A DNA stretch of 64,000 bases from sequence record NZ_CP088995.1; one strand, written 5' to 3'. This document shows, in pieces, positions 15,401 to 44,511 of the stretch. The number at the start of each line of letters is the position of its first letter. Positions within the stretch are counted from its first letter, which is position 1. The notes below the pieces were generated by a model. That model was not told the origin of the DNA, did not search any database, and saw only the letters and a list, made by a program, of their open reading frames with translations. Source of the stretch: a plasmid. Both the position numbers and the translations under genes were made by a program.

Positions 15401-16282
15401 TTACTGCCCGTTGACGCCCAATCCCTCGAGCGCGAGTCTAGCCGCAGCGGCGATGACGGCCTCGCTGTGCTTGTCATCCTTGTTAGGCGCCCGGGTGTAG
15501 ACGGCCAACACAATAGGTGCGCGCCCAGTGGGCCAGACGACGGCATAGTCATTTGCCGTGCCATACACTCCGCAGGTTCCGGTTTTGTCTCCGACTGCCC
15601 AGTCTGCCGGCACCGCCGCGCGGATGCGGTGGTTGCCGGTCGTGTTTCCCTTTAGCCAATCAACAAACTGCTGCCGCTGCGGCGCAGCCAGTGCAGAGCC
15701 CAGTGTCAGTTTTTGTAAGCTTTCCGTCACGGCGCGCGGCGATGAGGTATCGCGCGCATCGCCTGGGATGGCGGAGTTCAGCTCCAGCTCCCAGCGGTCC
15801 AGACGGAACGTGGTATCGCCGATAGAGCGCATGAAGGCCGTCAGCCCGGCCGGGCCGCCCAACTCCTTCAGCAACAAATTGGCGGCGGCGTTATCACTGT
15901 ATTGCACGGCGGCCGCGGACAGCTCCGCCACCGTCATGCCTGTTGTCAGATATTTTTCCGAGATGGGTGACCACGGAACCAGCGCATTTTTGCCGTAACG
16001 GATGGGTGTGTCCAGCAAGCCGGCCTGCTGCTGGCTGCGAGCCAGCACAGCGGCAGCAAGAAAGCCCTTGAATGAGCTGCACAGTGGGAAGCGCTCCTCA
16101 GCGCGGTAACTTACAGTTGCGCCTGAGCCGGTATCCATCGCGTACACACCGATGGAGCCGCCAAAGTCCTGTTCGAGTTTAGCGAATGGTTCCGCGACGA
16201 GGTTGGTCAGCGCGGTGGCAGAAAAGCCAGCCAGCGGCCATGAGAGACAAGACAGCAGAACTAGACGGCGATACAGTGACAT
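15401..16282 (-). CDS. blaKPC-2: KPC-2 class A carbapenemase (293 aa)
   Basis: translation [50 protein letters not shown]... identical in all recognisable regions to KPC; H272 (KDDKHSEAV) indicates KPC-2 not KPC-3; omega-loop [16 protein letters not shown] intact. Confidence 0.93.
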
Positions 16283-16357: not shown

Positions 16358-16562
16358 GGGTCTGACGCTCAGTGGAACGAAAACTCACGTTAAGAAGTCA
16401 TTTTTCAATATTATTGAAGCATTTATCAGGGTTATTGTCTCATGAGCGGATACATATTTGAATGTATTTAGAAAAATAAACAAATAGGGGTTCCGCGCAC
16501 ATTTCCCCGAAAAGTGCCACCTGACGTCTAAGAAACCATTATTATCATGACATTAACCTATA
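16358..16562 (-). other. blaTEM remnants: Tn3 sequence 3' of blaTEM joined directly to the blaTEM promoter/RBS region (coding sequence deleted); interrupted by ISKpn27 and continuing at 17643-17660
   Basis: GGGTCTGACGCTCAGTGGAACGAAAACTCACGTTAAG then TTTTTCAATATTATTGAAGCATTTATCAGGGTTATTGTCTCATGAGCGGATACATATTTGAATGTATTTAG..., both well-known Tn3/pBR322 bla flanks. Confidence 0.85.
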
Positions 16563-17538
16563 TGTCAAGACCCGGCTGGTTATACACGCGTTTCCTGAAC
16601 AATTCAGGGCGTTTTTCATGCCATTCCTTGAGCGCCTGAACGGGTGTTTTGTGTTGGAGCGCGCGTTGCGGAATGCTGTGGTTGTAGATCTTGACGTAAT
16701 TGCGCAGCGTCGATTCCAGTTCGGCAGCTGAACCAAAACGGGTCTGGTTGACGATGTCGCTGATACGACCGTTGAAGCGCTCCACCATGCCGTTGGTCTG
16801 CGGATGACGAGGCGGGATGAGCCGGTGCTCGATGCCGAGCTGCTTGCACAGGCGGTCGAACACGTGTGTGCCGCTGGGTTCCTTCTTCTTGCCGCCAGCC
16901 GTGAAGCGGTCGGTGAACTGGCTGCCGTTGTCGGTCAGAAGCTTGACGATCTTGACGGGACAGGCTTGCTGGACTTTGTTGAGGAAGTCGCCACTGCTGC
17001 CATCGGTCTGGTCGGCATAGAGCTCGATGAAGACCCAGCGCGTAGCACGGTCGATGGCAACGAAGAGATAGCGCCTTGCCGTCTCGTCGGGCATCTGCGG
17101 CAGGTACTTGATGTCGATGTGCACAAAGCCCGGCTCGTAGTCCTTGAAGGTCTTTTTCGTGGCGGGCGCAGTGCCTTCCTGCTCGACCAGGTTACGTAGA
17201 TCCGAGACACCGTGGCGGCGCAGGCAACGTCCCAGGCCGGCACGCGAGACGGCTGGATTGATGAACTCGCGCGTGACCGCCAGCAGGTCGTCCGTGGGCA
17301 GCAGCAACGTCTTGCGCAGCTCCACCACGATGAGCTCCTGCTCGGGCGTGAGCGTCGTGTACATCTTGTTCGGCGCATGCGACTTGTCTTCAGGAGACTC
17401 GCGGTTTTGCCACTTTCGGATGGTTTGGCGGGTGACGTTGTACATCCTGGCCAGTTCGGCCTGCGGGAGCGTCGAGTTCCTGATTTCCTCACGGATCAGG
17501 TGGGTAGTACGGGCTTGGCTGTGCAGTGCCTGGGTCAT
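16558..17538 (-). CDS. tnpA: IS481-family DDE transposase (326 aa)
   Basis: HTH N-terminus and integrase-core region (...HIDIKYLPQMPDE...LTDNGSQF...); stop codon at the IS terminus. Confidence 0.85.
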   Translation of the reverse strand: MTQALHSQARTTHLIREEIRNSTLPQAELARMYNVTRQTIRKWQNRESPEDKSHAPNKMYTTLTPEQELIVVELRKTLLLPTDDLLAVTREFINPAVSRAGLGRCLRRHGVSDLRNLVEQEGTAPATKKTFKDYEPGFVHIDIKYLPQMPDETARRYLFVAIDRATRWVFIELYADQTDGSSGDFLNKVQQACPVKIVKLLTDNGSQFTDRFTAGGKKKEPSGTHVFDRLCKQLGIEHRLIPPRHPQTNGMVERFNGRISDIVNQTRFGSAAELESTLRNYVKIYNHSIPQRALQHKTPVQALKEWHEKRPELFRKRVYNQPGLDI

Positions 17539-17660: not shown

Positions 17661-18941
<1,281 letters not shown>

Positions 18942-26505: not shown

Positions 26506-26520
26506 GGTAATGACTCCAAT

Positions 26521-27024
26521 TTACTGATAGTGTTTTATGTTCAGATAGTGCCCGATGACTTTGTCATGCAGCTCCACCGATTTTGAGAACGACAGGGACT
26601 TCCTGCCCAGCCTTGCCAGATGCTGTCTCAGATTCAGGTTGTGTCGCTCAATTCGCTGCGTGTAACGCTTACTGATGACGTGCAGTTTTCCCTTCAGACG
26701 TGACTCATACATCGGCCAGCCGTCCGTCATCCATACCACCACGTCAAAAACTGACAGCAGGCTCAGAAGACGCTCCAGTGTGGCCATAGTGCGTTCACCG
26801 AAAACGTGGGCTACCACCGCCCTGCGTATCCTGTCATACGCGTAAAACAGCCAGCGCTGACGTGATTTTGCACCGACGTAGCCCCATTGCTCGTCCATCT
26901 CCGCACAGACAATGACATCACTGCCCGGCTGTATCCGGGAGGTTACTGACTGCGGCCTGAGTTTTTTAAATGGCGCAAAATGGTGTTGAGGCCCACGCCC
27001 ATTAGTCGTGCGGTGGCACGGCAA
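26521..27024 (-). CDS. insB: IS1 InsB (167 aa)
   Basis: translation matches IS1 InsB; overlaps insA as expected for the frameshift fusion. Confidence 0.9.
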
Positions 27025-27218
27025 CCGACGCCGTTCATAGCCATATCAATGATTTTCTGGTGTGTACCGGGCTGAGAAGCGGCATAAGTGAAGGTGAGCT
27101 GCCATGTTTTACGGCAGTGAGAGCAGAGATAACGTTGATGCCCGGCAGTACTTTTGCCATTACGCATCACGCCTTCAGTAGCGGAACAGGAGGGACAGCA
27201 GACGGAGACTGAAGCCAC
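26943..27218 (-). CDS. insA: IS1 InsA (91 aa)
   Basis: [40 protein letters not shown]... zinc-finger N-terminus. Confidence 0.9.
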
Positions 27219-27473
27219 GGGAGCACCTCAAAAACACCATTATACACTAAATCAGCAAGTTGGTAGCATCACCATGTTTTCATACTGGCGTGTATGCCAC
27301 ATTATTAGCATTTTGCGAATAAAAATAACTGGCATAATTGTATTTAATGATAATGTTACATATTGTTAGCCAGGTTCCGGAAAGCGAGAACCGGAACCGC
27401 ACCTGTCCAGCCGGTATTCCCGTCGATGACCCTCGCTTTTTACTGATTTGTGCCCGACTGAGAAGTCGGTAAC

Positions 27474-28496
27474 TCAGTTTCGGAATCGGCGCAGATGAGT
27501 TTCGGGAACAAAATAAATGTTGCCGCGCGCCCGTGAGCATGCCACGTACAGCCTGTTACGGGACGACGGTGGAAGGGTTGCCAGTTCCTGACGGGTCAGA
27601 AGCTTCCAGTGGGAGGATCCCATCACAATGCAGACATCCTGAAAGTGATCGAGCCCTTTACTGGCGCCCCAGTTCATGGAATAGCAGCCGTAACGGTGAT
27701 GTTCACGATAGAAGAGCTTAATCACCGTATTATCGGCGTGCAGGGTGGCTGAGCGCTCTGTATCTGCGATCGTTTCAATCAGGGAGGCATGTATCCCATG
27801 GGCAGCGATACGGATGTTCAGTTGCCCGGTGATAAACTCGCACACTGAAGCTGAGCAACGCCATGTCCGGTTGAGCGTGTCCCGGTCAACCGCGAAACCT
27901 GCTGCGTCGAAGCGGGCCTCATATCGCGTGATGTCGTCGTGCAGCGTTGAATTAACGTTGCCGTCATGGCTTGTATCAAAGGTATGCTGATAAAAATCGC
28001 CGCAACAGAGCACAGTGATTTCCGCGCGGCAGAGCTCCAGCAGAAAATTAAAGTCATGTCCGGCAAAGTCCTGGACTTCATCGACAAGCAGTTCATCATA
28101 GTAACGGGCAAGCCGGATACGGATATCCGGCAGCAACCCCCGGGCTGTCAGTAAATGTGCGAGCCTCCGGTGATACAGCCGTCCGGCGGGATCCTGATAA
28201 TGCCGGGCATTCGTGCGCGGTATTCTGGGTGGGGGCTGGTCGAAGCTCAGGCCACGCGATGCCAGCTGCTCCTGCAGGAAAGGCCGGAAGCAAAAACCGT
28301 GCAGAAACTCAAACCAGGTCATCACCCTGATCCCTTCCGGGATAAAGCCAAAACGTCTGATAATCTGTGCCCGCAGATGCGCTTCATTATTCACGGTGAA
28401 GGTCAGGAGCAGCGTCCTCCTGTCCTCACTCAACCGTCGTATCAGCAGCGTGGTCTTGCCCGAGCCGGCAACCGCAAATATCACTCTCTTATCCAT
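27474..28496 (-). CDS. Compact UvrD/Rep-like superfamily 1 helicase (340 aa), downstream partner of the OLD-family gene
   Basis: Walker A AVAGSGKTT at residues 8-16, motif II DELLVDEVQD, motif III CCGDFYQ, motif VI LYVACSRARGN; 16-bp overlap with the upstream gene. Confidence 0.65.
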   Translation of the reverse strand: MDKRVIFAVAGSGKTTLLIRRLSEDRRTLLLTFTVNNEAHLRAQIIRRFGFIPEGIRVMTWFEFLHGFCFRPFLQEQLASRGLSFDQPPPRIPRTNARHYQDPAGRLYHRRLAHLLTARGLLPDIRIRLARYYDELLVDEVQDFAGHDFNFLLELCRAEITVLCCGDFYQHTFDTSHDGNVNSTLHDDITRYEARFDAAGFAVDRDTLNRTWRCSASVCEFITGQLNIRIAAHGIHASLIETIADTERSATLHADNTVIKLFYREHHRYGCYSMNWGASKGLDHFQDVCIVMGSSHWKLLTRQELATLPPSSRNRLYVACSRARGNIYFVPETHLRRFRN

Positions 28497-30043
28497 GCCA
28501 GTGCCTCCTGAATATAATCAGGTACGGTCAGCTCTCCGGCGTGCAGCTGTAACAGCCGGAATGCTGCTTCTGCCTTATTGGCCAGCATGTATTCCTGCAC
28601 CGTGAGTGTCCGGCGGGGTCCGCGGAAAAGCGTATCACACAGATCAGCGTTATCCTGATACAGGCTGATTTCAAATGTGGATCGGGTGTTATCGCGATCA
28701 GCAAATACCCGGGAGCGGGAACAAATCACGTCAGCATAGCGTTCATCGCAGTTTTGCTGATAGTTGCCGTCATTATCACGAAGGGCCGCGACGCGATTTT
28801 CCAGAAGACGGGCCAGTTCAAGATAACGACGGAAACTCGTTCCGCCGATAGCGATGATGTGAACTCCGTCTTCCTCCGGTGCCCTGCCATACAGGCGGCG
28901 ATAAAAGGCCTCGATCAGAATAAACTCAGCATCCCCCTCCACGAGCAGCACACGTCTGGCCAGCGCAAATTCCAGTACGTTATTATCCGGTGCTTTCATG
29001 AAGAAGGCGGCAGTCTCAGCGGAAAGTTCATTCATCAGTACCGGCCGGGCAGACCCGAGGAGGATTGCCTTACGCAGATCGAGGCGGGAGGAGATATGGC
29101 TGCTGTGTGTGGCAATAAACACCTGCGTCTGCCGTTCAGTGGCAAGCTGATTAACCAGCCTCTTCATACTGACATGGCTGAGATGATTTTCCGGCTCCTC
29201 AAGCAACAGTACGTGGAGCTCTCCCTGCTGCTGATGCCGCTGCAGCGCAAACTCCGTTTTGATGAAGCACTGCCTTCCTTTTCCACGGTGACGAATGGAA
29301 ATACCGTCCTCGGTAATGTCCAGATTCGCCTCAAGCCCTGATTTAGCACCGGAACGCACGCCAAACTGATACGTTTCCAGCGTGTCGTTTATGGCTGACA
29401 GATGCCGGGTGCAGAAGTGCATTTTCTGTTGCCGGTAACTGTTTTCAAGCCGGTACCGATCGGCCACCGGCACATTGACGCTGTAAACTGTGCGCGTATA
29501 TTCCTGTGCGGCGTGCTCGTTATCGATGCGTGCACTGTCTAAGAGCAGATGGCGCAGATAGCGTCTGAAGCTGGCGAAATGACCACCGGAGAAGGTGCTG
29601 AACCGCACGGAATAGTATTCATAGGGAAAATTATCGGGATCCTGCTGTAGTACATTGTGAATATCCTGGCCGTATTCCTCCGTCATTGGTGCAATACGCA
29701 TTCTGAGACCATCCGCATTGATACCCGCCAGATTTTGCCTGCCGTTCAGGTCAGGATCTCCCCCATTACTCAGGAAAACGTCAGCTGTCAGCACGGGTAA
29801 CTGATCGGCGCGGCGCTCACCTTCCTGAAACTGCCTTACTGCTGACTGGGACAGGAGCGATTCCACACCCAATGCCTCGACCCGGTGCCGGCTGTCACTC
29901 AGCACAAGGTCAAGGGCCAGCAGAATCGTGCTTTTCCCGGACTCATTGTCCCCGACCAGAATGTTACGGTCATGAGTGAAGCGCAGGTCCAGTTCCGGAA
30001 ACTTTTTAAAGTTTTGCAGCATAAGCCGCGTGATCAGAGGCAT
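28481..30043 (-). CDS. OLD-family ATP-dependent endonuclease (ABC-type ATPase + TOPRIM), 520 aa; GajA-like
   Basis: Walker A GDNESGKST, ABC signature/Walker B region LLLEEPENHLS, C-terminal TOPRIM-like LLVEGDAEFILIEAF. Confidence 0.7.
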   Translation of the reverse strand: MPLITRLMLQNFKKFPELDLRFTHDRNILVGDNESGKSTILLALDLVLSDSRHRVEALGVESLLSQSAVRQFQEGERRADQLPVLTADVFLSNGGDPDLNGRQNLAGINADGLRMRIAPMTEEYGQDIHNVLQQDPDNFPYEYYSVRFSTFSGGHFASFRRYLRHLLLDSARIDNEHAAQEYTRTVYSVNVPVADRYRLENSYRQQKMHFCTRHLSAINDTLETYQFGVRSGAKSGLEANLDITEDGISIRHRGKGRQCFIKTEFALQRHQQQGELHVLLLEEPENHLSHVSMKRLVNQLATERQTQVFIATHSSHISSRLDLRKAILLGSARPVLMNELSAETAAFFMKAPDNNVLEFALARRVLLVEGDAEFILIEAFYRRLYGRAPEEDGVHIIAIGGTSFRRYLELARLLENRVAALRDNDGNYQQNCDERYADVICSRSRVFADRDNTRSTFEISLYQDNADLCDTLFRGPRRTLTVQEYMLANKAEAAFRLLQLHAGELTVPDYIQEALAWIRE

Positions 30044-30116
30044 CTTTTATTCCTTTATATACCGCTGACTGAAAGAGTGTCCGGCTGCGCCAGACCGCCT
30101 GTTTTGTTTTACAGCG

Positions 30117-30533
30117 TTATCTTACCCAGTCTTCCAGCACAAGACCCGGTACCCGCTCAAATTCCCGCGTATTATTCGTCACCAGCACGGCACCGGCGGC
30201 GATGGCGTGCCCGGCAATGGCCGTGTCGTTCGGGCCGATCGGCGTCCCGGCCATTCGCAGCGCCACCTTAATCTCCGTGGTGGCGTCCACCGCAGCGCGA
30301 TCCCAGGGCAGGATGGCATCGAGGCGGGCGCAGAACGCGTCGACCAGCTCGACGTGGCGCGGGGAGGCCTTCGGGCCGGTGGCCCCGAAGCGCATTTCAG
30401 AATAAGTGATGGCCGAGACAACGATGCGCTGGCCGCGCAGCACCGCCTGCTCCAGGCGCTTCAGGACGGCTTCCGGCTGCTCGCGCATGATGAACGAGCA
30501 GATACAGGTGTCGAGCATATAGGTCTTGTTCAC
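30117..30533 (-). CDS. vapC: PIN-domain toxin VapC
   Basis: MLDTCICSF... with conserved acidic residues and C-terminal VTNNTREFERVPGL typical of VapC. Confidence 0.85.
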   Translation of the reverse strand: MNKTYMLDTCICSFIMREQPEAVLKRLEQAVLRGQRIVVSAITYSEMRFGATGPKASPRHVELVDAFCARLDAILPWDRAAVDATTEIKVALRMAGTPIGPNDTAIAGHAIAAGAVLVTNNTREFERVPGLVLEDWVR

Positions 30534-30763
30534 AGGTTAAATCGTCCTTCGTCGCTGACAACGTCCTCGCGCTCCGCCATAAAGTCCGGGTCTGCCTTCT
30601 CGAACTGCGCGAACGAGCCCCAGGTCGGCCGGACGGGACGCAAAATAATGCTGTCCCCTTCCCGGACGATCTCCAGCTCGCTCACTCCCTCAAAATCCAG
30701 ATCGCGGGGCAGACGAATGGCGCGGTTATTGCCGTTTTTAAAAATGGATACAGTTCTCATCAT
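30530..30763 (-). CDS. vapB: VapB antitoxin (SpoVT/AbrB-type), overlaps vapC by 4 bp
   Basis: MMRTVSIFKNGNNRAIRLPRDLDF... swapped-hairpin DNA-binding N-terminus. Confidence 0.8.
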   Translation of the reverse strand: MMRTVSIFKNGNNRAIRLPRDLDFEGVSELEIVREGDSIILRPVRPTWGSFAQFEKADPDFMAEREDVVSDEGRFNL

Positions 30764-30780
30764 TTCCTCCTGGCCGACCG

Positions 30781-30910
30781 GCCTGTATGACTATGTTCAG
30801 TATATGCAGATGCAAAGCATATGTATAGTCATAGCATATGCAGATGGTAAGTATATGCGTATGCCACACCTATGCAGATGCCCGGCATATGGATATGTTG
30901 AACCTATGTT
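30781..30910. promoter_or_regulatory. Array of short ATGCAGATG/ATATGC-type repeats in the intergenic region between vapB and the RHH-led operon (candidate operator array or divergent promoters)
   Basis: TATATGCAGATGCAAAGCATATGTATAGTCATAGCATATGCAGATGGTAAGTATATGCGTATGCCACACCTATGCAGATGCCCGGCATATGGATATG seen directly in the sequence. Confidence 0.5.
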
Positions 30911-31338
30911 GTATTCTCTCTTTTCCCGGTCAGATCCGAAAAAAGCTAGTTCCGGATCTGCCGGAACGGCTCCGGCGCGCAGCGGCCCGGCAACACAAGA
31001 TGTAGCGGTGTTCCCAGCTGAGGATGACGCTATATGTTGTGTCCCTCCCCTCCCCCGTGACCGGCCGCTCACCACCGGAAAACGCCGCTTTGCTTATTCC
31101 CTGACCGTGGTACACTTCCGGAAAGTTGTTATACGCAAAAAAATCGGATCTGCCGGAAACGGCCATCCGGTAATTTAGCTGCGTGACTGTTTCATGCCTT
31201 ATCACGTGCTGATTTCTTCCTTTGTGTACAAAATGAATCATAACGTATACATTTATTGTTATAGCGGTAAATCAGGCTTCATGTTTACTTCAAAGACCAT
31301 TTACCAGTCCTGAATACGTTTTGCATAAGGAAGGAGTC

Positions 31339-32283
31339 ATGGCGAAGATCCAGGCCAGAAATGTTGACGATGCGCTGTTTGCACGCATTGAGCAGTCAGC
31401 GATGAAAAATGAACGTTCACTCGAAGGGGAGATCCGCCTGGCGCTGGCCAGACAGTATCCTGCCGGGACCACCTCTCCGGAAATCCTCTCCAGCCGGCAA
31501 CAGTGGCAGAAGGAATGTGGCGGGCGTCTGCGCGCCCTGTTTGACCGTCTGTCCGCTGACGGCTTTTTCCCGGGGGCCGGGCAACCCGGGCCGACGCGGA
31601 TCGCCGACCAGGTACGGATAGCTCACCGGTTACATGTTTCCCCGGGACTGCTCCTGGACTGTATCGATGGCGCCGGTGAGTTAACCCGTGAGCTGGCTGA
31701 ACGGATTGAAAGCCGGTTCGGCGCCAGTGCAGACTGGCTGACCACCGGTGACGGGAAGATGTTCCCGCTGGTGATCCTGGGGACGTATTTTGGTGTCAGC
31801 TGGGAGGAGTTTTTCTTCCCGGATGATGATGAAAGGTATGTCTTTGAGTTCATCCGCATCGCCGGTGGGCGCCATGATGGCACCCTGATGATCCTGCGCC
31901 AGCATGAGCAGAACGGCCGTATCACTGCCGGCGTGGTAACAGAGGCGTTTTTCCTTGGTGCCGGTATGGGGCCGGGGGGGTATGTAAACCTGAAAGAATT
32001 TTTGTTGTTCCTCAGACAACACGGCGGGAATCTGGTCATGAATGCGTATGTGTTCTCCCCCCCGGAGCCGGATTTTGATTTCTGGTCAGTCATGGGTCAG
32101 CACCATCCGGTCTGGTTCCGTGACGCCAGACGTCGCTCCCCTTCCCGCTGGCTGCAGCAGGTACTCAGTGGTGAAGATCCGGGCGAATGGTTTGCCGGGG
32201 GATGGTCATCAATACTGAAAGAAGTGGCCGAAGCTACCCCTCCGGATAACGCTACTGAACATACAGAAAAAAATGATGAATGA
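31339..32283 (+). CDS. Multidomain protein: N-terminal Arc/FitA-like ribbon-helix-helix, central XRE-like HTH, C-terminal domain of unknown function (315 aa)
   Basis: MAKIQARNVDDALFARIEQSAMKNERSLEGEIRLALAR (RHH pattern); ...ELAERIESRFGASADWLTTGDG (HTH end); strong RBS AAGGAGG. Confidence 0.6.
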   Translation: MAKIQARNVDDALFARIEQSAMKNERSLEGEIRLALARQYPAGTTSPEILSSRQQWQKECGGRLRALFDRLSADGFFPGAGQPGPTRIADQVRIAHRLHVSPGLLLDCIDGAGELTRELAERIESRFGASADWLTTGDGKMFPLVILGTYFGVSWEEFFFPDDDERYVFEFIRIAGGRHDGTLMILRQHEQNGRITAGVVTEAFFLGAGMGPGGYVNLKEFLLFLRQHGGNLVMNAYVFSPPEPDFDFWSVMGQHHPVWFRDARRRSPSRWLQQVLSGEDPGEWFAGGWSSILKEVAEATPPDNATEHTEKNDE

Positions 32284-32319
32284 TTCGGTGCATCACGGCA
32301 ACGTATAACAGGAAACCAG

Positions 32320-32712
32320 ATGAACAGAACATATGACGAACCAGAGACCGAAACGGACGTGATGGCCGCCGCCTTCCGCACCATACGCAGGTACGGCATG
32401 ACTATCATCACCGCCACGCAGCATATGGATGTTAATGGTTACGTGAAAACTGACCCGCGGATGCCCAGAACGCGGCTGCGCCGCTACCTGGGGCAGTATG
32501 GCCTGCGCGGTGAGGCGCTGAACAGGGAGGTCAGACGTATCGTTGCAGGGCCTGAGCGACGCGACAGTAAGCTGAAGGACGGGATTTACTATACCTGGCC
32601 TTATGGCTGGGAGCCCTGTGATTTTACGCCGATGATGCGCCGTATTTTTCGCGGGAAGCGGACCCGCCATGTGATGATGTCAGATGAAATGCCAGCGCTG
32701 TTTCTCAACTAA
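32320..32712 (+). CDS. Hypothetical basic protein (130 aa), operon member
   Basis: 37 bp after previous gene, same strand; no recognisable motif. Confidence 0.5.
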   Translation: MNRTYDEPETETDVMAAAFRTIRRYGMTIITATQHMDVNGYVKTDPRMPRTRLRRYLGQYGLRGEALNREVRRIVAGPERRDSKLKDGIYYTWPYGWEPCDFTPMMRRIFRGKRTRHVMMSDEMPALFLN

Positions 32713-32736
32713 AGTACTAACGAACAGGCCCAGTCT

Positions 32737-33291
32737 GTGTATAAGCATACTCCCCAAATCAGGTTCGGGATGATAGCGCCCGGACAACATGGCAAGAATC
32801 TGCGGGACATTCCTGAGCAGTGTTTTGATTACGGGTTTGATCGGGAAGATCGCTGGCCGGGGCTGGTTCTGGCCTCTACGGTAACTGTGCCGAACGGTAA
32901 CACCGATGGCTGGCGACTGGCGACGCAGAGTTGTGGTGGATTCAGCTGTAACGAATTTCAGGCCGCGGTTCTGCCCCTGCCAGTTCGCCCGGAGATGCTA
33001 CGGTTTCTTGAAACCGTCGCGGAGGAGGAATTTTCGCCGGCGCCTCTGGATTACTTCAATATGATGGATGCCGCCGATGCCGCAGCAGTTAAAAAAGGGT
33101 TCCTGTCATGTCTTCACCGCGCGGGGCTTTCCTGCAGTGAGCATAATCTGTCACTCCTGACACAGGCGCTTTATCCGGTGGATGCCACAGCGGAAAACAT
33201 GAAGATCCTGGCCGGGAATTGTACTGAACTGGCCGCAATGAAGGTTCCCGGGGGACTGACGATATTTATCGTGGGTCAGAACTGTGATTAA
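32737..33291 (+). CDS. Hypothetical protein (184 aa), operon member
   Basis: 24 bp after previous gene; cysteine-containing, no recognised domain. Confidence 0.5.
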   Translation: MYKHTPQIRFGMIAPGQHGKNLRDIPEQCFDYGFDREDRWPGLVLASTVTVPNGNTDGWRLATQSCGGFSCNEFQAAVLPLPVRPEMLRFLETVAEEEFSPAPLDYFNMMDAADAAAVKKGFLSCLHRAGLSCSEHNLSLLTQALYPVDATAENMKILAGNCTELAAMKVPGGLTIFIVGQNCD

Positions 33292-33336
33292 TTTGAACAC
33301 AAATGAGCCATTCCTGGAGACGGAGGATAACAGTCA

Positions 33337-33540
33337 ATGATGCCGGCATTACCAGGTCCGGGCGTTTCGTTTTCCGCTGCGCAGCTGCCGATGATGACGA
33401 CCCTGAGCGCCAGTGACGGCTGTCACCTGTATTTTGAGCAGGGCACACTGGTGTGGATCGAGGTTTACTCGCAGGGCGACAAGCGCTGGCCGTTTTATGG
33501 CAGACCAGAACTGACGGGAATTACCCATTCATCCACGTAA
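33337..33540 (+). CDS. Small hypothetical protein (67 aa), operon member
   Basis: preceded by GGAGACGGAGG RBS. Confidence 0.4.
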   Translation: MMPALPGPGVSFSAAQLPMMTTLSASDGCHLYFEQGTLVWIEVYSQGDKRWPFYGRPELTGITHSST

Positions 33541-33569
33541 CAGTTACGCAACGGGACAAAGAGACCGGT

Positions 33570-34574
33570 ATGGAAGCGAAAACTAAAACCTTCATAAAAA
33601 CGTCTGTTGATGATAACGGCATGTGGCTGCTGACCGTCCCGGCGGGGAGCGCGGGCAACGAAACGGTGGTTGTGGTCGTCAGACGGGTGGAGGAATGTCG
33701 TTACGGGTCTGAGGACTCGCCAGGGGCATATCTGTGGATCACCTGTAGCCTGACGCTGTACGGTGACGGACAAAGTACACCGCAGACCATTGTCGCGAAG
33801 TTCGAGCACGGCCGTGTGGAACTGTTCAGTGTTGAATTTATGCTGAATGAATTTTTACCCCGTGGTCGGGGAGTGGGCAGCTGGATCATGCAGCAGATGG
33901 TGCTCTGGACCCGCTCCCTGCCGCCGGAAACGCTGGTCAGACAAATCCACATTTCGTCCGTGGATGCGAAAAACATTCACAATCTGATCCGCCGGAGCAG
34001 ACTGTGGCGTGGGCTGGGTTTCCGGTTCCCGCCGGGGGAAACCAGCTCAATGCCGCTGCGGGCAGACGAACTGCAGTTGCCACGGGGCAGGTGTTCAACG
34101 CTCCGGGTGGAGCCCCTGGTATCCGCGGTACGCCGGCTGGAAGACTGTTATCGCGGGCTGCAGGAAAAAATCGTGCAGCTCGAAGGCAAAAAACGGTCGC
34201 AAAAACAGTTAATTACTTCACTTAGGAATCGTCCATTTTATCATCTGTTGCACAGGAAAGGGGGCCAGCTCCCGGACGAGAAATGTGACGCCCTGCCACT
34301 GCGGGCAGAAAAACTGTCTCTGCCGCAGAGCGGGGATTCTGACCTGGAGGTGGCGCAACGGGCAACCGGGGTTATCCGGCTGGCAACCCTGTGTAGTCAG
34401 TCGCAGGAAAAAATCGTTGAGCTCGAAAGGGATCTTGCCTCGCAAAGTGAATACCTCCTTGACCTGCAGACAAAGCTCCTTTCTATCCTGTGGGGGAAAG
34501 TCGCTAACCTGACCTTATTCTGGGGGGGCGTGGTGATTTTTCTGTACTTTATCAAGTGGATGTTGGTGGCATGA
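33570..34574 (+). CDS. Membrane-anchored coiled-coil protein (about 334 aa from MEAKTKTF) with two internal repeats and a C-terminal transmembrane helix
   Basis: repeats PLRADELQLPRGRCSTLRVEPLVSAVRRLEDCYRGLQEKIVQLEGK / PLRAEKLSLPQSGDSDLEVAQRATGVIRLATLCSQSQEKIVELERD; C-terminus LTLFWGGVVIFLYFIKWMLVA. Confidence 0.5.
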   Translation: MEAKTKTFIKTSVDDNGMWLLTVPAGSAGNETVVVVVRRVEECRYGSEDSPGAYLWITCSLTLYGDGQSTPQTIVAKFEHGRVELFSVEFMLNEFLPRGRGVGSWIMQQMVLWTRSLPPETLVRQIHISSVDAKNIHNLIRRSRLWRGLGFRFPPGETSSMPLRADELQLPRGRCSTLRVEPLVSAVRRLEDCYRGLQEKIVQLEGKKRSQKQLITSLRNRPFYHLLHRKGGQLPDEKCDALPLRAEKLSLPQSGDSDLEVAQRATGVIRLATLCSQSQEKIVELERDLASQSEYLLDLQTKLLSILWGKVANLTLFWGGVVIFLYFIKWMLVA

Positions 34575-42600: not shown

Positions 42601-44511
42601 GTGCGCCGGGAGACCGGTAGAGATCAAGGGGTGAAAGTCCCCGACCATTGAAGGACCAGCAATCCACAAGGTCCCCGAGTCATGCGTTGCATACCGCGAG
42701 GTATGGGGCGAAGCGTTGACAGGGGTGTTGACAGGCCAGCCATTGAGCCACGAAATGTATATTAAATTACCGGGTGCCGACGTTGTACTGTTAACGGAAG
42801 GCAACATCATAGGGTGCGATACTGCGAGTGCCACATGGACCCGGCGGGGTCTGAGACCCTGGCATGTCAATACGATCTCTACGCGGGAACCGGGAGATCT
42901 CCCCTCTGACCATCTGCCAGTGTCGGAGATGGCCCGCACCGGGAAGACGAGGAGTCATAGCCGGTGATGTACGGAGAGGAGAAGTCGGACTCGCTCATAG
43001 TAGCGGCGAAGCAGGCGAACAACCCGAAAGGAGCGGAGTCAGTGGAGCGAAGGAGCGGGGCCAAGGGGAACGCGGAACAGCCACACATGCGCCGGACACA
43101 GAGCCGGGAAAGCATGTCACAGAGGCTGTCACGCGTGCGGGAAGCTGCGAAGCAGCGGAAGAAAGAACGGTTTACAGCATTGTTCCACCTGCTGACAGTC
43201 GAAGCACTGGAAGCCGCATTCCTCTCCCTGAGCAGGAAAGCGGCCGCCGGAGTGGATGGCATCAGGTGGATGGACTACGCCGGAAACATGAAGAACAACA
43301 TAACAGATCTGCACCGGAGGCTACATCAGGGCAGCTACAGGGCGCAGCCCGGCAGGCGTCACTACATCCCAAAAGCGGATGGAAAACAACGCCCGCTCGG
43401 CATCGCCTCGCTGGAGGACAAGATCGTCCAGTATGCGCTGGTGAAAATCCTGAACGCAGTCTATGAAAACGACTTTATGGGGTTCTCATACGGGTTCAGA
43501 CCCGGGCGAAGCCAGCACGATGCACTGGACGCACTGGCCACAGGGCTGGTACGCACTAACGTAAACTGGGTACTGGATGCCGACATCAGTCAGTTCTTCG
43601 ACAGGGTGAGCCACGAATGGCTGATCAGGTTCACAGAGCATCGGATCGGCGACCGGAGGGTAATCAGGCTCATACGTAAGTGGCTCACAGCCGGGACGTC
43701 GGAGGAGGGTCAATGGCGAGCAACGGAGGAAGGCACCCCACAGGGTGCGGTCATCTCACCGCTGCTGGCAAACATATACCTCCACTACGTCTTCGATCTG
43801 TGGGCGCATCAGTGGCGACGTCGCTATGCCACAGGCAATGTGGTAATGGTCAGATACGCCGATGACATCGTCATCGGGTTCGACAAACGATACGATGCCC
43901 GGCGCTTCCGTATAGCCATGCAGCGCAGACTGAGGGAGTTCGGACTCACGGTTCACCCGGAGAAAACCCGTCTGATGGAGTTCGGCCGCTTCGCTGCCGA
44001 AAACCGTGCCATCAGGGGAAAAGGCAAACCAGAAACGTTCAACTTCCTCGGGTTCACGCACATCAGCGGGAAAGATCGCAACGGCAGGTTCATGCTGATA
44101 CGAAAGACCCGCCGGGATCGGATGACGGCAACTCTGAAAGCCATCAAAGACGGTCTGCGAAGGCGCTGGCATTACTCAATCCCCGAACAGGGAAAATGGC
44201 TCAGGAGAGTGGTTCAGGGATACCTGAACTATCACTCGGTACCGGGCAACTTCCCCACCATGCAGAAGTTCAGGACACACGTAACAAACCTCTGGCGCCG
44301 GGCGCTCAGGCGCAGGAGCCAGAAGGATGATACGACCTGGACGAAAGCAAACAAACTGGCAGCCGCATGGCTACCAAGGGTTCGGGTTCTTCATCCATGG
44401 CCTGTGGAGCGGTTCACCGCCAGACACCCGAGGCAGGAGCCCGGTGCGTAAATCGCGCACGCCGGGATCTGTGCGGGGGGTATCCGGTAACGGGTATCCC
44501 TACCGCGACAT
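42601..44511 (+). mobile_element. Bacterial group II intron (about 1.9 kb) with its intron-encoded protein in domain IV
   Basis: 5' end GTGCGCC, RT-maturase ORF, 3' domain V/VI-like GC-rich hairpins ending ...TACCGCGACAT just after the ORF stop. Confidence 0.75.
42964..44451 (+). CDS. ltrA: Group II intron reverse transcriptase/maturase (495 aa)
   Basis: RT motifs (PKADGKQRPLGIASLEDKIVQ; YADDIVIG) and maturase/X domain. Confidence 0.85.
   Translation: MMYGEEKSDSLIVAAKQANNPKGAESVERRSGAKGNAEQPHMRRTQSRESMSQRLSRVREAAKQRKKERFTALFHLLTVEALEAAFLSLSRKAAAGVDGIRWMDYAGNMKNNITDLHRRLHQGSYRAQPGRRHYIPKADGKQRPLGIASLEDKIVQYALVKILNAVYENDFMGFSYGFRPGRSQHDALDALATGLVRTNVNWVLDADISQFFDRVSHEWLIRFTEHRIGDRRVIRLIRKWLTAGTSEEGQWRATEEGTPQGAVISPLLANIYLHYVFDLWAHQWRRRYATGNVVMVRYADDIVIGFDKRYDARRFRIAMQRRLREFGLTVHPEKTRLMEFGRFAAENRAIRGKGKPETFNFLGFTHISGKDRNGRFMLIRKTRRDRMTATLKAIKDGLRRRWHYSIPEQGKWLRRVVQGYLNYHSVPGNFPTMQKFRTHVTNLWRRALRRRSQKDDTTWTKANKLAAAWLPRVRVLHPWPVERFTARHPRQEPGA

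What the first reader, a model, noticed from the sequence alone, without database searches (positions are those of the whole stretch)
27474..30043. Gabija-like OLD-family ATPase/TOPRIM nuclease with an unusually compact UvrD-like helicase, next to vapBC
Two overlapping genes (16-bp overlap) read on the minus strand. The first is a 520-aa OLD-family protein with an ABC ATPase head (GDNESGKST; LLEEPENHLS) and a TOPRIM-like C-terminus (LLVEGDAEFILIEAF). The second is a 340-aa SF1 helicase with motifs I, II, III and VI only. OLD proteins paired with UvrD/Rep helicases (class 2 OLD) include the Gabija antiphage system (GajA/GajB). Here the helicase is about 150 aa shorter than typical GajB. It appears to lack the accessory 1B/2B domains, so it may be a minimal or divergent variant. 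The pair sits directly downstream of vapBC on a resistance plasmid.
Basis: partly seen in the sequence, partly recalled or inferred. Interest (0 to 1): 0.8.

Follow-up and report, generated by a model that had tools for sequence, protein, structure and literature searches.

The report
Compact plasmid-borne Gabija defence gene pair
This is an intact two-gene Gabija-type anti-phage module (a nuclease and a small helicase) that defence-annotation tools already recognise and that sits on thousands of Klebsiella and E. coli resistance plasmids, so it is ordinary except that this short-helicase form appears never to have been tested in the laboratory.

Summary
On the minus strand, a 520-aa OLD-family ATPase/TOPRIM nuclease (28481-30043) overlaps a 340-aa SF1A helicase (27474-28496) by 16 nt, directly downstream of vapBC, on a KPC-type Klebsiella plasmid.

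- **Family:** both proteins match subtype-specific PADLOC Gabija models end to end (GajA PDLC00102, E 1e-102; GajB PDLC00148, E 1e-46).
- **Not a truncation:** hundreds of homologues from Enterobacterales, Pseudomonas, Acinetobacter, Cupriavidus and Listeria are 333-385 aa. Each of the four distant loci examined has a 520-527-aa OLD partner and the same 16-nt overlap.
- **Intact:** all catalytic motifs are present, and dN/dS against the E. coli allele is about 0.12.
- **Distribution:** the cassette occurs in 2270 PLSDB plasmids and in 769 of 5426 complete E. coli genomes. A published survey already counts it as plasmid "Gabija", next to VapBC and Tmn.

The Gabija systems tested so far (B. cereus, ECOR49, PA14) are other subtypes. 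My verdict is a known kind, of low to moderate interest.

The parts
28481..30043 (-). gajA: 520-aa class 2 OLD-family nuclease with an ABC-type ATPase head and a C-terminal TOPRIM domain
   Evidence: ORF. PADLOC GajA PDLC00102 E 1.3e-102 over residues 4-517. Pfam AAA_15 and OLD-like_TOPRIM. AF2 model pLDDT 85.3, with Foldseek hits to Ts OLD 6p74 and B. cereus GajA 8sm3_A at E about 1e-16. Identical to WP_004206609.1.
28994..30043 (-). GajA ATPase region (about aa 1-350): Walker A K37, Walker B E282/E283, H-loop H313
   Evidence: Motif positions. These residues are invariant in 113 homologues. Aligned to B. cereus GajA residues 272-372.
28484..28960 (-). GajA TOPRIM nuclease region (about aa 362-520): E369, G400, D423/D425 (DxD), E458, K490
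   Evidence: Pfam OLD-like_TOPRIM covers 362-425. In the residue-level alignment, E369 pairs with Bc E379 and G400 with Bc G409. The DxD lies at the same +23/+25 spacing as Bc D432/D434. All are invariant in the family.
27474..28496 (-). gajB: 340-aa compact SF1A (UvrD/Rep-like) helicase. It has 1A and 2A motor domains plus a short 1B-like insertion, and no 2B domain or C-terminal tail
28101..28316 (-). GajB residues about 61-132: the reduced 1B-like helical insertion. In B. cereus GajB the 1B domain carries the GajA-docking surface
   Evidence: Helices 61-78, 109-118 and 122-132 in the model. Flanking alignments are 6-77 to Bc GajB 15-89 and 132-167 to Bc 155-191, and 5-80 to Rep 19-103 and 123-177 to Rep 196-250. 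The role of 1B in B. cereus comes from PMC10781630.
28481..28509 (-). 16-nt gajA/gajB overlap (28481-28496) with an AGGAGG ribosome-binding site (28504-28509) inside the end of gajA. This suggests translational coupling
   Evidence: Sequence. The same 16-nt overlap occurs in Acinetobacter, Pseudomonas, Vreelandella and Listeria loci.
30117..30763 (-). vapBC (vapB 30530-30763, vapC 30117-30533): type II toxin-antitoxin pair 73 nt upstream on the same strand. It is a neighbour and possibly co-transcribed, but not a conserved part of the system
   Evidence: ORFs and annotation. There is a promoter-like site upstream of vapB at 30827-30799, and none, nor any terminator-like site, between vapC and gajA. 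vapBC is absent from the chromosomal homologue loci.
26506..27273 (-). IS1 copy. It marks the downstream edge of the cassette, about 200 nt past the gajB stop codon, and does not truncate the gene
   Evidence: InsA/InsB ORFs. The terminal inverted repeat starts at 27273. Annotated as an IS1 transposase in identical records.

Best explanation
This is an intact Gabija-family defence module of a compact subtype. It consists of a class 2 OLD nuclease (GajA, 520 aa) translationally coupled to a minimal SF1A helicase (GajB, 340 aa), carried on the backbone of a KPC-type Klebsiella resistance plasmid next to vapBC.

The mechanism below is inferred from the characterised B. cereus and P. aeruginosa systems.
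1. GajA oligomerises, and its ABC ATPase head binds nucleotide, which keeps the TOPRIM nuclease off at normal ATP levels.
2. GajB docks on GajA through its 1B-like insertion.
3. The TOPRIM site (E369, G400, D423/D425) nicks or cuts DNA when either of two things happens: infection lowers nucleotide pools, or invading linear DNA presents ends not occupied by RecBCD.
4. The helicase motor then engages the damaged DNA and burns (d)NTPs. This blocks circularisation and replication of the invader, or aborts the infection.

Because GajB has no 2B domain, it cannot be regulated by 2B rotation as proposed for the B. cereus protein. 2B is the autoinhibitory, duplex-binding domain of Rep and UvrD. Control of the helicase must therefore come entirely from GajA.

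Shown here: gene integrity, family membership by profile and by fold, conservation of every catalytic motif, purifying selection, conserved pairing and overlap, and a defence-island context for homologues. Inferred: complex formation, the trigger, nuclease activity and the phage or plasmid targets.
For: - Full-length, subtype-specific PADLOC hits for both proteins. The same model pair hits a Listeria homologue pair.
- Pfam AAA_15 plus OLD-like_TOPRIM, and UvrD-helicase.
- The best informative solved relatives are GajA (phmmer E 1e-10; Foldseek E 1e-16) and Rep/UvrD/GajB.
- Catalytic residues are invariant across 113 GajA and 201 GajB homologues. The query deviates only at two conservative GajA positions.
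- TOPRIM E369/G400/D423/D425 match Bc E379/G409/D432/D434.
- dN/dS against the E. coli allele is 0.116 for gajA and 0.129 for gajB.
- The pairing, with an identical 16-nt overlap, is conserved in four distant genomes. In three of them the pair lies next to Wadjet, a Septu-like ATPase+HNH pair in an integrase island, or a type I RM system.
- The cassette is in 2270 PLSDB plasmids and 769 of 5426 E. coli genomes.
- The E. coli allele lies next to tmn and vapBC. This is the arrangement that a PADLOC-based survey reported as plasmid Gabija.
Against: - No member of this compact subtype has been shown to defend against phage in anything I could find. The tested systems are B. cereus VD045, ECOR49 (GajA with E379/D495/K528 and GajB with K27/D183) and PA14 (DESQ motif). 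All are other subtypes.
- PADLOC GajB models also hit housekeeping-type PcrA. The helicase hit alone is therefore weak, and the call rests on the GajA partner and the operon.
- About 700 plasmids carry only fragments of the cassette, so it is dispensable.
- GajB has H177 where most of the family has R.
Confidence: 0.8

Rival explanations
1. Same biochemistry, different main job. On plasmids the OLD/helicase pair would chiefly serve plasmid maintenance and competition between mobile elements, by destroying incoming rival plasmids, phage-plasmids or linear DNA, and it would work with vapBC as a stability block rather than protecting the host from lytic phage.
For: - In E. coli, 778 of 788 copies are on plasmids.
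- vapBC is immediately upstream in both the Klebsiella and the E. coli alleles, with similar divergence to gajB (dS 0.45-0.57).
- Wu et al. place Gabija, Tmn and VapBC in the plasmid leading region and propose a role in fending off competing mobile elements.
- Hong et al. report that plasmids as well as phages are sensitised to Gabija by DNA end-binding proteins.
Against: - Distant homologue pairs are chromosomal, lack vapBC and sit among classical defence systems such as Wadjet, type I RM and a Septu-like pair.
- All tested Gabija systems restrict phages.
- The two roles are not mutually exclusive.
Confidence: 0.14
2. A plasmid-encoded DNA repair or recombination accessory, that is, a nuclease plus a UvrD-like helicase that processes plasmid DNA, with no immune role.
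For: - The helicase fold is closest to the repair and replication helicases Rep, UvrD and PcrA.
- umuDC lies on the same backbone.
Against: - The partner is an OLD-family ATPase/TOPRIM nuclease, which is known only from defence or exclusion systems.
- The pair matches Gabija-specific profiles full length.
- Homologues lie in defence islands and integrative elements.
Confidence: 0.03
3. A decaying or truncated remnant of a longer Gabija system. The 340-aa ORF would be a fragment, perhaps cut by the adjacent IS1.
For: - An IS1 lies 200 nt downstream.
- The helicase is 154 aa shorter than B. cereus GajB.
- Many plasmids carry partial copies of the cassette.
Against: - Homologues across several phyla are 333-385 aa, with the same start and end.
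- The match covers PADLOC model positions 1-352 of 369.
- Motif VI and the last strand and helix of 2A are present.
- The query does not deviate at any conserved position.
- dN/dS is 0.13.
- The stop codon lies 200 nt before the IS1 inverted repeat.
Confidence: 0.02

Closest known systems
Gabija of Bacillus cereus VD045 (GajA 578 aa / GajB 494 aa; PDB 8SM3, 8J4T, 8JQB, 8U7I)
   Same: - A two-gene operon of a class 2 OLD ATPase/TOPRIM nuclease followed by an SF1A helicase.
- Walker A/B, H-loop and TOPRIM E/G/DxD residues are conserved at equivalent positions.
- The helicase has Walker A, a DExQD box and motifs III-VI.
- The 1B region, which mediates GajA docking in B. cereus, has nearly the same length.
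   Different: - GajB is 154 aa shorter. It has no 2B domain, so the 2B rotation proposed for activation cannot occur.
- GajA is 58 aa shorter, with a more compact TOPRIM region (E-to-acidic-residue spacing of 89 versus 132 residues).
- Helicase sequence similarity is marginal (E 0.58).
- The compact subtype is untested experimentally.
Plasmid 'Gabija' of E. coli IncF plasmids, found next to Tmn and VapBC in the PADLOC survey of Wu et al., bioRxiv 10.1101/2022.08.21.504612
   Same: - The same cassette: 90% nucleotide identity, with gajA 521 aa and gajB 340 aa.
- The same vapBC lies upstream.
- It is detected as Gabija by the same HMM set.
   Different: - The window lacks tmn, which lies divergently beside vapB in the E. 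coli plasmids.
- The Gabija actually cloned and tested in that paper, from ECOR49, is a long-form subtype and not this one.
Class 2 OLD nucleases (Burkholderia pseudomallei and Xanthomonas campestris OLD; Schiltz et al. 2019, cited in PMC10781630)
   Same: An OLD ATPase+TOPRIM protein encoded in tandem with a UvrD/PcrA/Rep-like helicase. The family profile matches the Xcc OLD C-terminal region across residues 358-411, which include the catalytic E369 and G400.
   Different: Only weak sequence similarity (E 3e-4). Nothing in what I read here speaks to the size of their partner helicases.
E. coli Rep and its engineered 2B-deletion variant (Cheng et al. 2002, cited in PMC13069673)
   Different: No 2B domain and no C-terminal tail, and 1B is about 50 aa shorter than in Rep. 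The gene is encoded with, and overlaps, an OLD nuclease gene. It is not a housekeeping gene.
P2 Old / Thermus scotoductus OLD (class 1 OLD)
   Same: The same ATPase+TOPRIM architecture. Ts OLD is the top Foldseek hit for the GajA model (E 1.1e-16).
   Different: Class 1 proteins act alone, whereas here a helicase partner is conserved. The PADLOC Old model matches only part of the protein (E 1.5e-19, against 1e-102 for GajA).
PARIS (AriA/AriB)
   Same: An ABC-type ATPase and a TOPRIM nuclease of the OLD lineage.
   Different: In PARIS the ATPase and the TOPRIM are separate proteins and there is no helicase. The AriA model matches mainly the P-loop region (best stretch residues 4-52).

Membership tests
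Gabija (GajA/GajB) | GajA: one polypeptide with an N-terminal ABC-type ATPase and a C-terminal OLD-type TOPRIM nuclease | tested here: met
   PADLOC GajA PDLC00102 E 1.3e-102, residues 4-517 on model positions 3-531 of 532. Pfam AAA_15 plus OLD-like_TOPRIM. Foldseek to 8sm3_A GajA at E 1.4e-16.
Gabija (GajA/GajB) | GajB: a UvrD-like SF1A helicase encoded immediately downstream in the same operon | tested here: met
Gabija (GajA/GajB) | Catalytic residues shown to be required in tested systems: GajA Walker A Lys, H-loop His, TOPRIM Glu and DxD; GajB Walker A and DExQ box | tested here: met
   K37, H313, E369, G400 and D423/D425 in GajA; K14/T15 and D139/E140/Q142 in GajB. All are invariant or at least 90% conserved in the family. 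E369, G400 and H313 are aligned to B. cereus residues, and D423/D425 are placed by identical spacing from G400.
Gabija (GajA/GajB) | Four-subdomain GajB (1A, 1B, 2A, 2B) as in the B. cereus structure. This is a feature of the prototype, not part of the HMM definition | tested here: not met
   Mapping to Rep shows 96 profile positions where Rep has 302 residues that include 2B (374-542), and 43 positions against 93 residues across 1B. The model has no extra domain between motifs IV and V.
Gabija (GajA/GajB) | GajA4:GajB4 supramolecular complex through the GajB 1B domain | not testable with these tools
   No multimer prediction was available. I could only show that a 1B-like segment of similar length to that of B. 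cereus GajB is retained.
Gabija (GajA/GajB) | Protection against phage that requires both genes; ATP-inhibited DNA nicking by GajA | not testable with these tools
   This needs experiments. I found no report for this subtype in the searchable literature.
Class 2 OLD nucleases | An OLD-family nuclease encoded in tandem with a UvrD/PcrA/Rep-like helicase | tested here: met
   The pairing is conserved in distant genomes. The definition is quoted in PMC10781630.
PARIS (AriA/AriB) | Separate ATPase (AriA) and TOPRIM (AriB) proteins, with no helicase | tested here: not met
   ATPase and TOPRIM are fused in one 520-aa protein. The AriA model's best stretch is residues 4-52 (E 1e-18, against 1e-102 for GajA). 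A helicase partner is present.
Class 1 OLD (P2 Old type) | A stand-alone OLD nuclease without a helicase partner | tested here: not met
   A conserved overlapping helicase gene is present. The PADLOC Old model matches only partially (E 1.5e-19).
Septu / retron PtuA ATPases | PtuA-type ATPase paired with an HNH nuclease (PtuB) | tested here: not met
   NCBIfam PtuA scores 36.6 bits against a cutoff of 500, and only residues 4-49 match. No HNH partner is present. The C-terminal domain is TOPRIM.

The most novel reading that the evidence does not exclude
The compact pair could be a mechanistically distinct 'mini-Gabija'. Because its helicase is a natural 2B-less SF1A motor, it would lack the autoinhibitory, duplex-binding switch and would be controlled solely by GajA. 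That could give it different triggers or targets from the B. cereus, ECOR49 and PA14 systems, for example constitutive surveillance of incoming conjugative or linear DNA, or dependence on partners such as Tmn.

This subtype occurs in 14% of complete E. coli genomes and in about 3% of PLSDB plasmids (about 2% near-complete), including KPC plasmids. It may therefore account for a large share of enterobacterial 'Gabija' calls while having no direct experimental support.
Probability: 0.25. Interest if true: 0.5.

Novelty: already known. Interest (0 to 1): 0.27.

Why it matters
As a classification, this changes nothing. The cassette is picked up as Gabija by PADLOC's own subtype models, is present in thousands of sequenced plasmids, and has been counted in a published survey of plasmid defence systems.

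What is worth knowing is narrower. The Gabija form that travels on epidemic Klebsiella KPC plasmids and E. coli IncF plasmids is a short subtype whose helicase lacks the 2B domain. Every mechanistic and phenotypic study I could find used long-form systems instead.

If phage therapy against KPC-producing Klebsiella, or models of plasmid competition, rely on 'Gabija present' calls, then the activity, the triggers and the susceptibility to phage anti-Gabija proteins of this subtype are assumptions rather than data. It also offers a small natural model of an SF1A helicase without 2B.

Tried and rejected
1. **Truncation by the adjacent IS1 or by a frameshift.** Rejected on the length distribution, the conservation and the intact 3' end.
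2. **PARIS, class 1 Old, Septu or retron effectors.** Rejected on architecture and partial profile hits.
4. **hhalign of the family alignment against E. coli Rep.** It gave only one local segment. I replaced it with an HMM search run with filters off, which gave three anchoring segments.
5. **Testing whether the experimentally studied E. coli Gabija (ECOR49) or the PA14 Gabija are this subtype.**
   - ECOR49 is not, judged by its mutant numbering and by the N-terminus encoded in the cloning primer.
   - PA14 probably is not, because its motif II is DESQ where this family has DEVQD. I could not fetch its sequence.
6. **Looking up the reference plasmid CP083423.1.** It is not in the local collections.
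7. **Phrase searches of Wu et al.'s supplementary tables for plasmid Gabija rows.** These failed because the text is tab-separated.
8. **Literature searches** for the two protein accessions, for Gabija+pKpQIL and for Gabija+KPC+ST11 found nothing specific.
9. **Profile search of the GajA family against PDB sequences.** It ranked P-loop-only hits above GajA and was less informative than the single-sequence search.
10. **Promoter and terminator scan.** It did not resolve whether gajAB has its own promoter or is read through from vapBC.
Full report
**1. The observation**

The six-frame ORF list shows 28481..30043 (-) encoding 520 aa and 27474..28496 (-) encoding 340 aa. Both start at ATG and they overlap by 16 nt at 28481-28496. 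The junction reads ...GCA CTG GCA TGG ATA AGA GAG TGA for the end of the first gene, with ATG GAT AAG AGA GTG for the start of the second. An AGGAGG lies 7 nt upstream of that ATG, an arrangement typical of translational coupling.

vapC (30117-30533) and vapB (30530-30763) lie directly upstream on the same strand, 73 nt from the first gene. An IS1 lies downstream. Its terminal inverted repeat begins at 27273, 200 nt past the helicase stop codon, so the gene is not cut.

The window is a Klebsiella pneumoniae multi-replicon KPC plasmid. It has an IncR-type repB, parAB and umuDC backbone to the right, and a mer operon, IS26 and a blaKPC-2-type gene at 15401-16282 to the left.

**2. What the two proteins are**

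*The 520-aa protein.*
- Pfam finds AAA_15, AAA_21 and SMC_N-type P-loop hits plus OLD-like_TOPRIM at residues 362-425.
- PADLOC finds GajA model PDLC00102 at E 1.3e-102, covering residues 4-517 on model positions 3-531 of 532. PDLC00098 follows at E 3.5e-91. Old (1.5e-19) and AriA (1e-18; best stretch residues 4-52) are far behind.
- NCBIfam gives only sub-threshold P-loop hits.
- Among solved structures, the best sequence match is B. cereus GajA (E 1.3e-10).
- An AlphaFold model (pLDDT 85.3) matches Thermus OLD and B. cereus GajA over their full length at E about 1e-16.
- The residue-level alignment puts E369 on Bc E379 and G400 on Bc G409. D423/D425 lie at the same +23/+25 spacing as Bc D432/D434. 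These are the four elements Antine et al. list as the complete TOPRIM active site.
- Walker A K37, Walker B E282/E283 and H313 are invariant in the family.

*The 340-aa protein.*
- Pfam gives weak N-terminal Viral_helicase1 and UvrD-helicase hits.
- PADLOC gives GajB PDLC00148 at E 1.3e-46 (residues 1-330 on model positions 1-352 of 369) and PDLC00140 at E 1.2e-41.
- Direct similarity to B. cereus GajB is marginal (E 0.58), although it aligns motif I/Ia and motif II/III sensibly.

**3. The short helicase is not a truncation**

A word-indexed search found 2540 relatives. Those at 50-89% identity, from Serratia, Dickeya, Pantoea, Yersinia, Pseudomonas, Acinetobacter, Cupriavidus and Vreelandella, are almost all 339-346 aa. 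An exhaustive HMMER scan of 1.84 billion cluster representatives found 952 clusters (135 at E<=1e-30). The full-length members are 333-385 aa down to 28% identity.

In an alignment of 201 homologues, 42 positions are at least 90% conserved, and the window's protein matches all of them. In 113 GajA homologues, 206 positions are that conserved, and the window's protein differs only at L308V and L337M.

Against the 90%-identical E. coli allele, dN/dS is 0.116 for gajA and 0.129 for gajB. Both genes are intact and under purifying selection.

**4. Anatomy of the helicase**

The AlphaFold model is confident (pLDDT 89.7, pTM 0.85).
- Foldseek agrees, with UvrD, GajB, Rep and PcrA at E about 1e-10.

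A family HMM run with all filters off anchors three segments on Rep:

| Compact GajB (profile) | E. coli Rep |
|---|---|
| 5-80 | 19-103 |
| 123-177 | 196-250 |
| 273-335 | 552-613 |

The Rep subdomain boundaries are quoted from my recollection of Korolev et al. 1997: 1B is 85-195 and 2B is 374-542. Using them:
- The 1B region is 43 positions here against 93 residues in Rep.
- The stretch containing 2B is 96 positions against 302 residues.
- The 60-residue C-terminal tail of Rep is absent.

Against B. cereus GajB, the segments 6-77 to 15-89 and 132-167 to 155-191 leave a 1B region only about 11 residues shorter than in the prototype. Nearly all of the 154-residue difference therefore lies after motif III, that is, in 2B.

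That is not correct.
- T32/T34/N36/N37 (motif Ia) are conserved.
- The SWRCS stretch with R213 fits the NYRS pattern of motif IV.
- NWGASKGLD at 275-283 aligns with Rep's motif V, and YVACSRAR aligns with Rep's motif VI.

The protein is a complete SF1A motor (1A+2A) with a reduced 1B and no 2B.

**5. Conserved pairing and context**

In Acinetobacter, Pseudomonas protegens and Vreelandella, the homologous helicase (343-344 aa) is always preceded by a 520-523-aa AAA_15/OLD-like_TOPRIM protein with the same 16-nt overlap. In these loci the pair lies beside the following systems:
- a Wadjet JetABCD system;
- an ATPase+HNH (Septu-like) pair inside an integrase-bounded island;
- a type I restriction-modification system.

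A Listeria record holds the same subtype (527 + 372 aa, 16-nt overlap), hitting the same two PADLOC models. vapBC is absent from these loci, so its linkage is specific to the plasmid lineage.

**6. Distribution, and what is already known**

- The 2570-nt cassette matches 2270 of 72,556 PLSDB plasmids. Of these, 1565 are near-complete and 1374 are at least 99% identical, mostly Klebsiella.
- It also matches 769 of 5426 complete E. coli genomes, with 778 of 788 places on plasmids and mostly a 90% allele.
- Records annotate the two genes only as 'AAA family ATPase / ATP-dependent nuclease' and 'helicase UvrD'.
- In an E. coli IncF plasmid, the 90% allele has vapBC upstream. Beside vapB, and divergent from it, is a 1264-aa gene that matches PADLOC Tmn at E=0.

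[quoted passage not shown] The cassette is therefore already counted as Gabija in the literature.

However, the Gabija those authors cloned came from ECOR49. It has GajA E379/D495/K528 and GajB K27/D183, and its cloning primer encodes the N-terminus MRIETVYIKGL. It is a long-form subtype. The PA14 system of Hong et al. has a DESQ box where this family has DEVQD. The structural work is all on B. cereus VD045. A chromosomal E. coli Gabija in UTI89 is 754 + 612 aa and hits other PADLOC models.

I found no paper that mentions the two protein accessions, or that tests this subtype.

**7. Mechanism**

By homology, GajA should form the ATP-restrained TOPRIM nuclease core and GajB should dock through its 1B-like segment. 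In B. cereus the major GajA-GajB contacts are in 1B.

The published activation models are nucleotide depletion (B. cereus; summarised) and recognition of linear DNA ends not protected by RecBCD, which blocks genome circularisation (P. aeruginosa). Which of these applies here is unknown.

The one structural inference specific to this subtype concerns 2B. Antine et al. read a partial 2B rotation as a poised state of GajB. Rep lacking 2B is still an active helicase (cited). A GajB with no 2B domain cannot use that switch, so its regulation must come from GajA.

No clear promoter or terminator separates vapC from gajA. Co-transcription with vapBC is therefore possible but unproven.

**8. Rivals**

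- A primary role in plasmid maintenance or competition between mobile elements fits the plasmid bias and the vapBC and Tmn linkage. It is compatible with the same biochemistry. The chromosomal defence-island homologues argue that this is not the ancestral role.
- A repair function and a decayed remnant are both poorly supported (sections 3 and 5).

**9. Verdict**

This is a standard, tool-recognised member of the Gabija / class 2 OLD family. It belongs to a compact subtype that is ancient, widespread and very common on enterobacterial resistance plasmids.

The only open point of interest is that this 2B-less subtype appears never to have been tested, although it may make up a large share of 'Gabija' calls in E. 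coli and Klebsiella. Interest is 0.27 and novelty is 'already known'.

Noticed in passing
window 27966-27968 (GajB codon 177): GajB has His at position 177, in the conserved extension of motif III (QHTFDTS-R-DG). Here 135 of 201 family members have Arg and only 6 have His. The equivalent region of PcrA and UvrD motif III contacts ssDNA (from my own knowledge). This could mean that the Klebsiella allele is attenuated.
   Followed up: partly
window 27474-30763 compared with L008 8999-12289: Between the Klebsiella allele and the E. coli IncF allele, gajA has much lower synonymous divergence (dS 0.21) than gajB (0.57), vapC (0.53) or vapB (0.45). This suggests recombination inside the four-gene block.
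   Followed up: no
window ~26506-27273; L008 8048-8745; L002 6292-6986: An IS1 copy sits about 180-255 nt downstream of gajB in three different plasmid lineages, and in both orientations. This may reflect an insertion hot spot or an old insertion that was later inverted.
   Followed up: no
PLSDB hits H79-H84: About 700 of the 2270 plasmids with a match carry only fragments of the cassette. One example is a 689-nt piece covering just the 5' part of gajA. In one plasmid (H1/H65, NZ_CP129848.1) an IS26 is annotated under the two-piece match, so it probably interrupts the cassette. The cassette is often disrupted and is evidently dispensable.
   Followed up: no
L008 12670-16464 (E. coli plasmid NZ_CP013657.1): A 1264-aa Tmn gene (PADLOC E=0) lies divergently next to vapB in E. 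coli IncF plasmids that carry the 90% allele. A second vapBC pair and a HEPN nuclease follow it. The window has unrelated hypothetical genes at that position (31321-34574), and none of them hits PADLOC.
   Followed up: partly
L012 29-2410 (Listeria record OR846759.1): A 793-aa PcrA-like ORF next to the Listeria compact Gabija pair matches PADLOC 'GajB' model PDLC00110 at E=0 over the whole model. If this ORF is the housekeeping PcrA, as its size suggests, some PADLOC GajB models also capture housekeeping-type helicases, and a GajB hit alone is not evidence of Gabija. The record is flagged UNVERIFIED_ORG and may be a bacterial fragment rather than a phage.
   Followed up: no
window 15401-16282 (-): A 293-aa class A carbapenemase ORF whose coordinates correspond to the annotated blaKPC-2 in plasmid CP023938.1. 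An ISKpn27-sized ORF (16558-17538) and an IS26-sized ORF (18174-18896) flank it. A mer operon lies at about 20.2-24.9 kb, followed by IS5075.
   Followed up: partly
window 42964-44451 (+): A group II intron reverse transcriptase/maturase (ltrA) lies between umuDC and parM on the plasmid backbone, according to the annotation of the identical stretch in pKPC2_040035.
   Followed up: no
window 30207-31178 (+): A 323-aa GTG-initiated ORF runs antisense across vapBC. It is not annotated in any matching record and is probably spurious. A shorter hypothetical gene that overlaps the vapB start is annotated in public records (L001 11518-11979, corresponding to about window 30717-31178).
   Followed up: no
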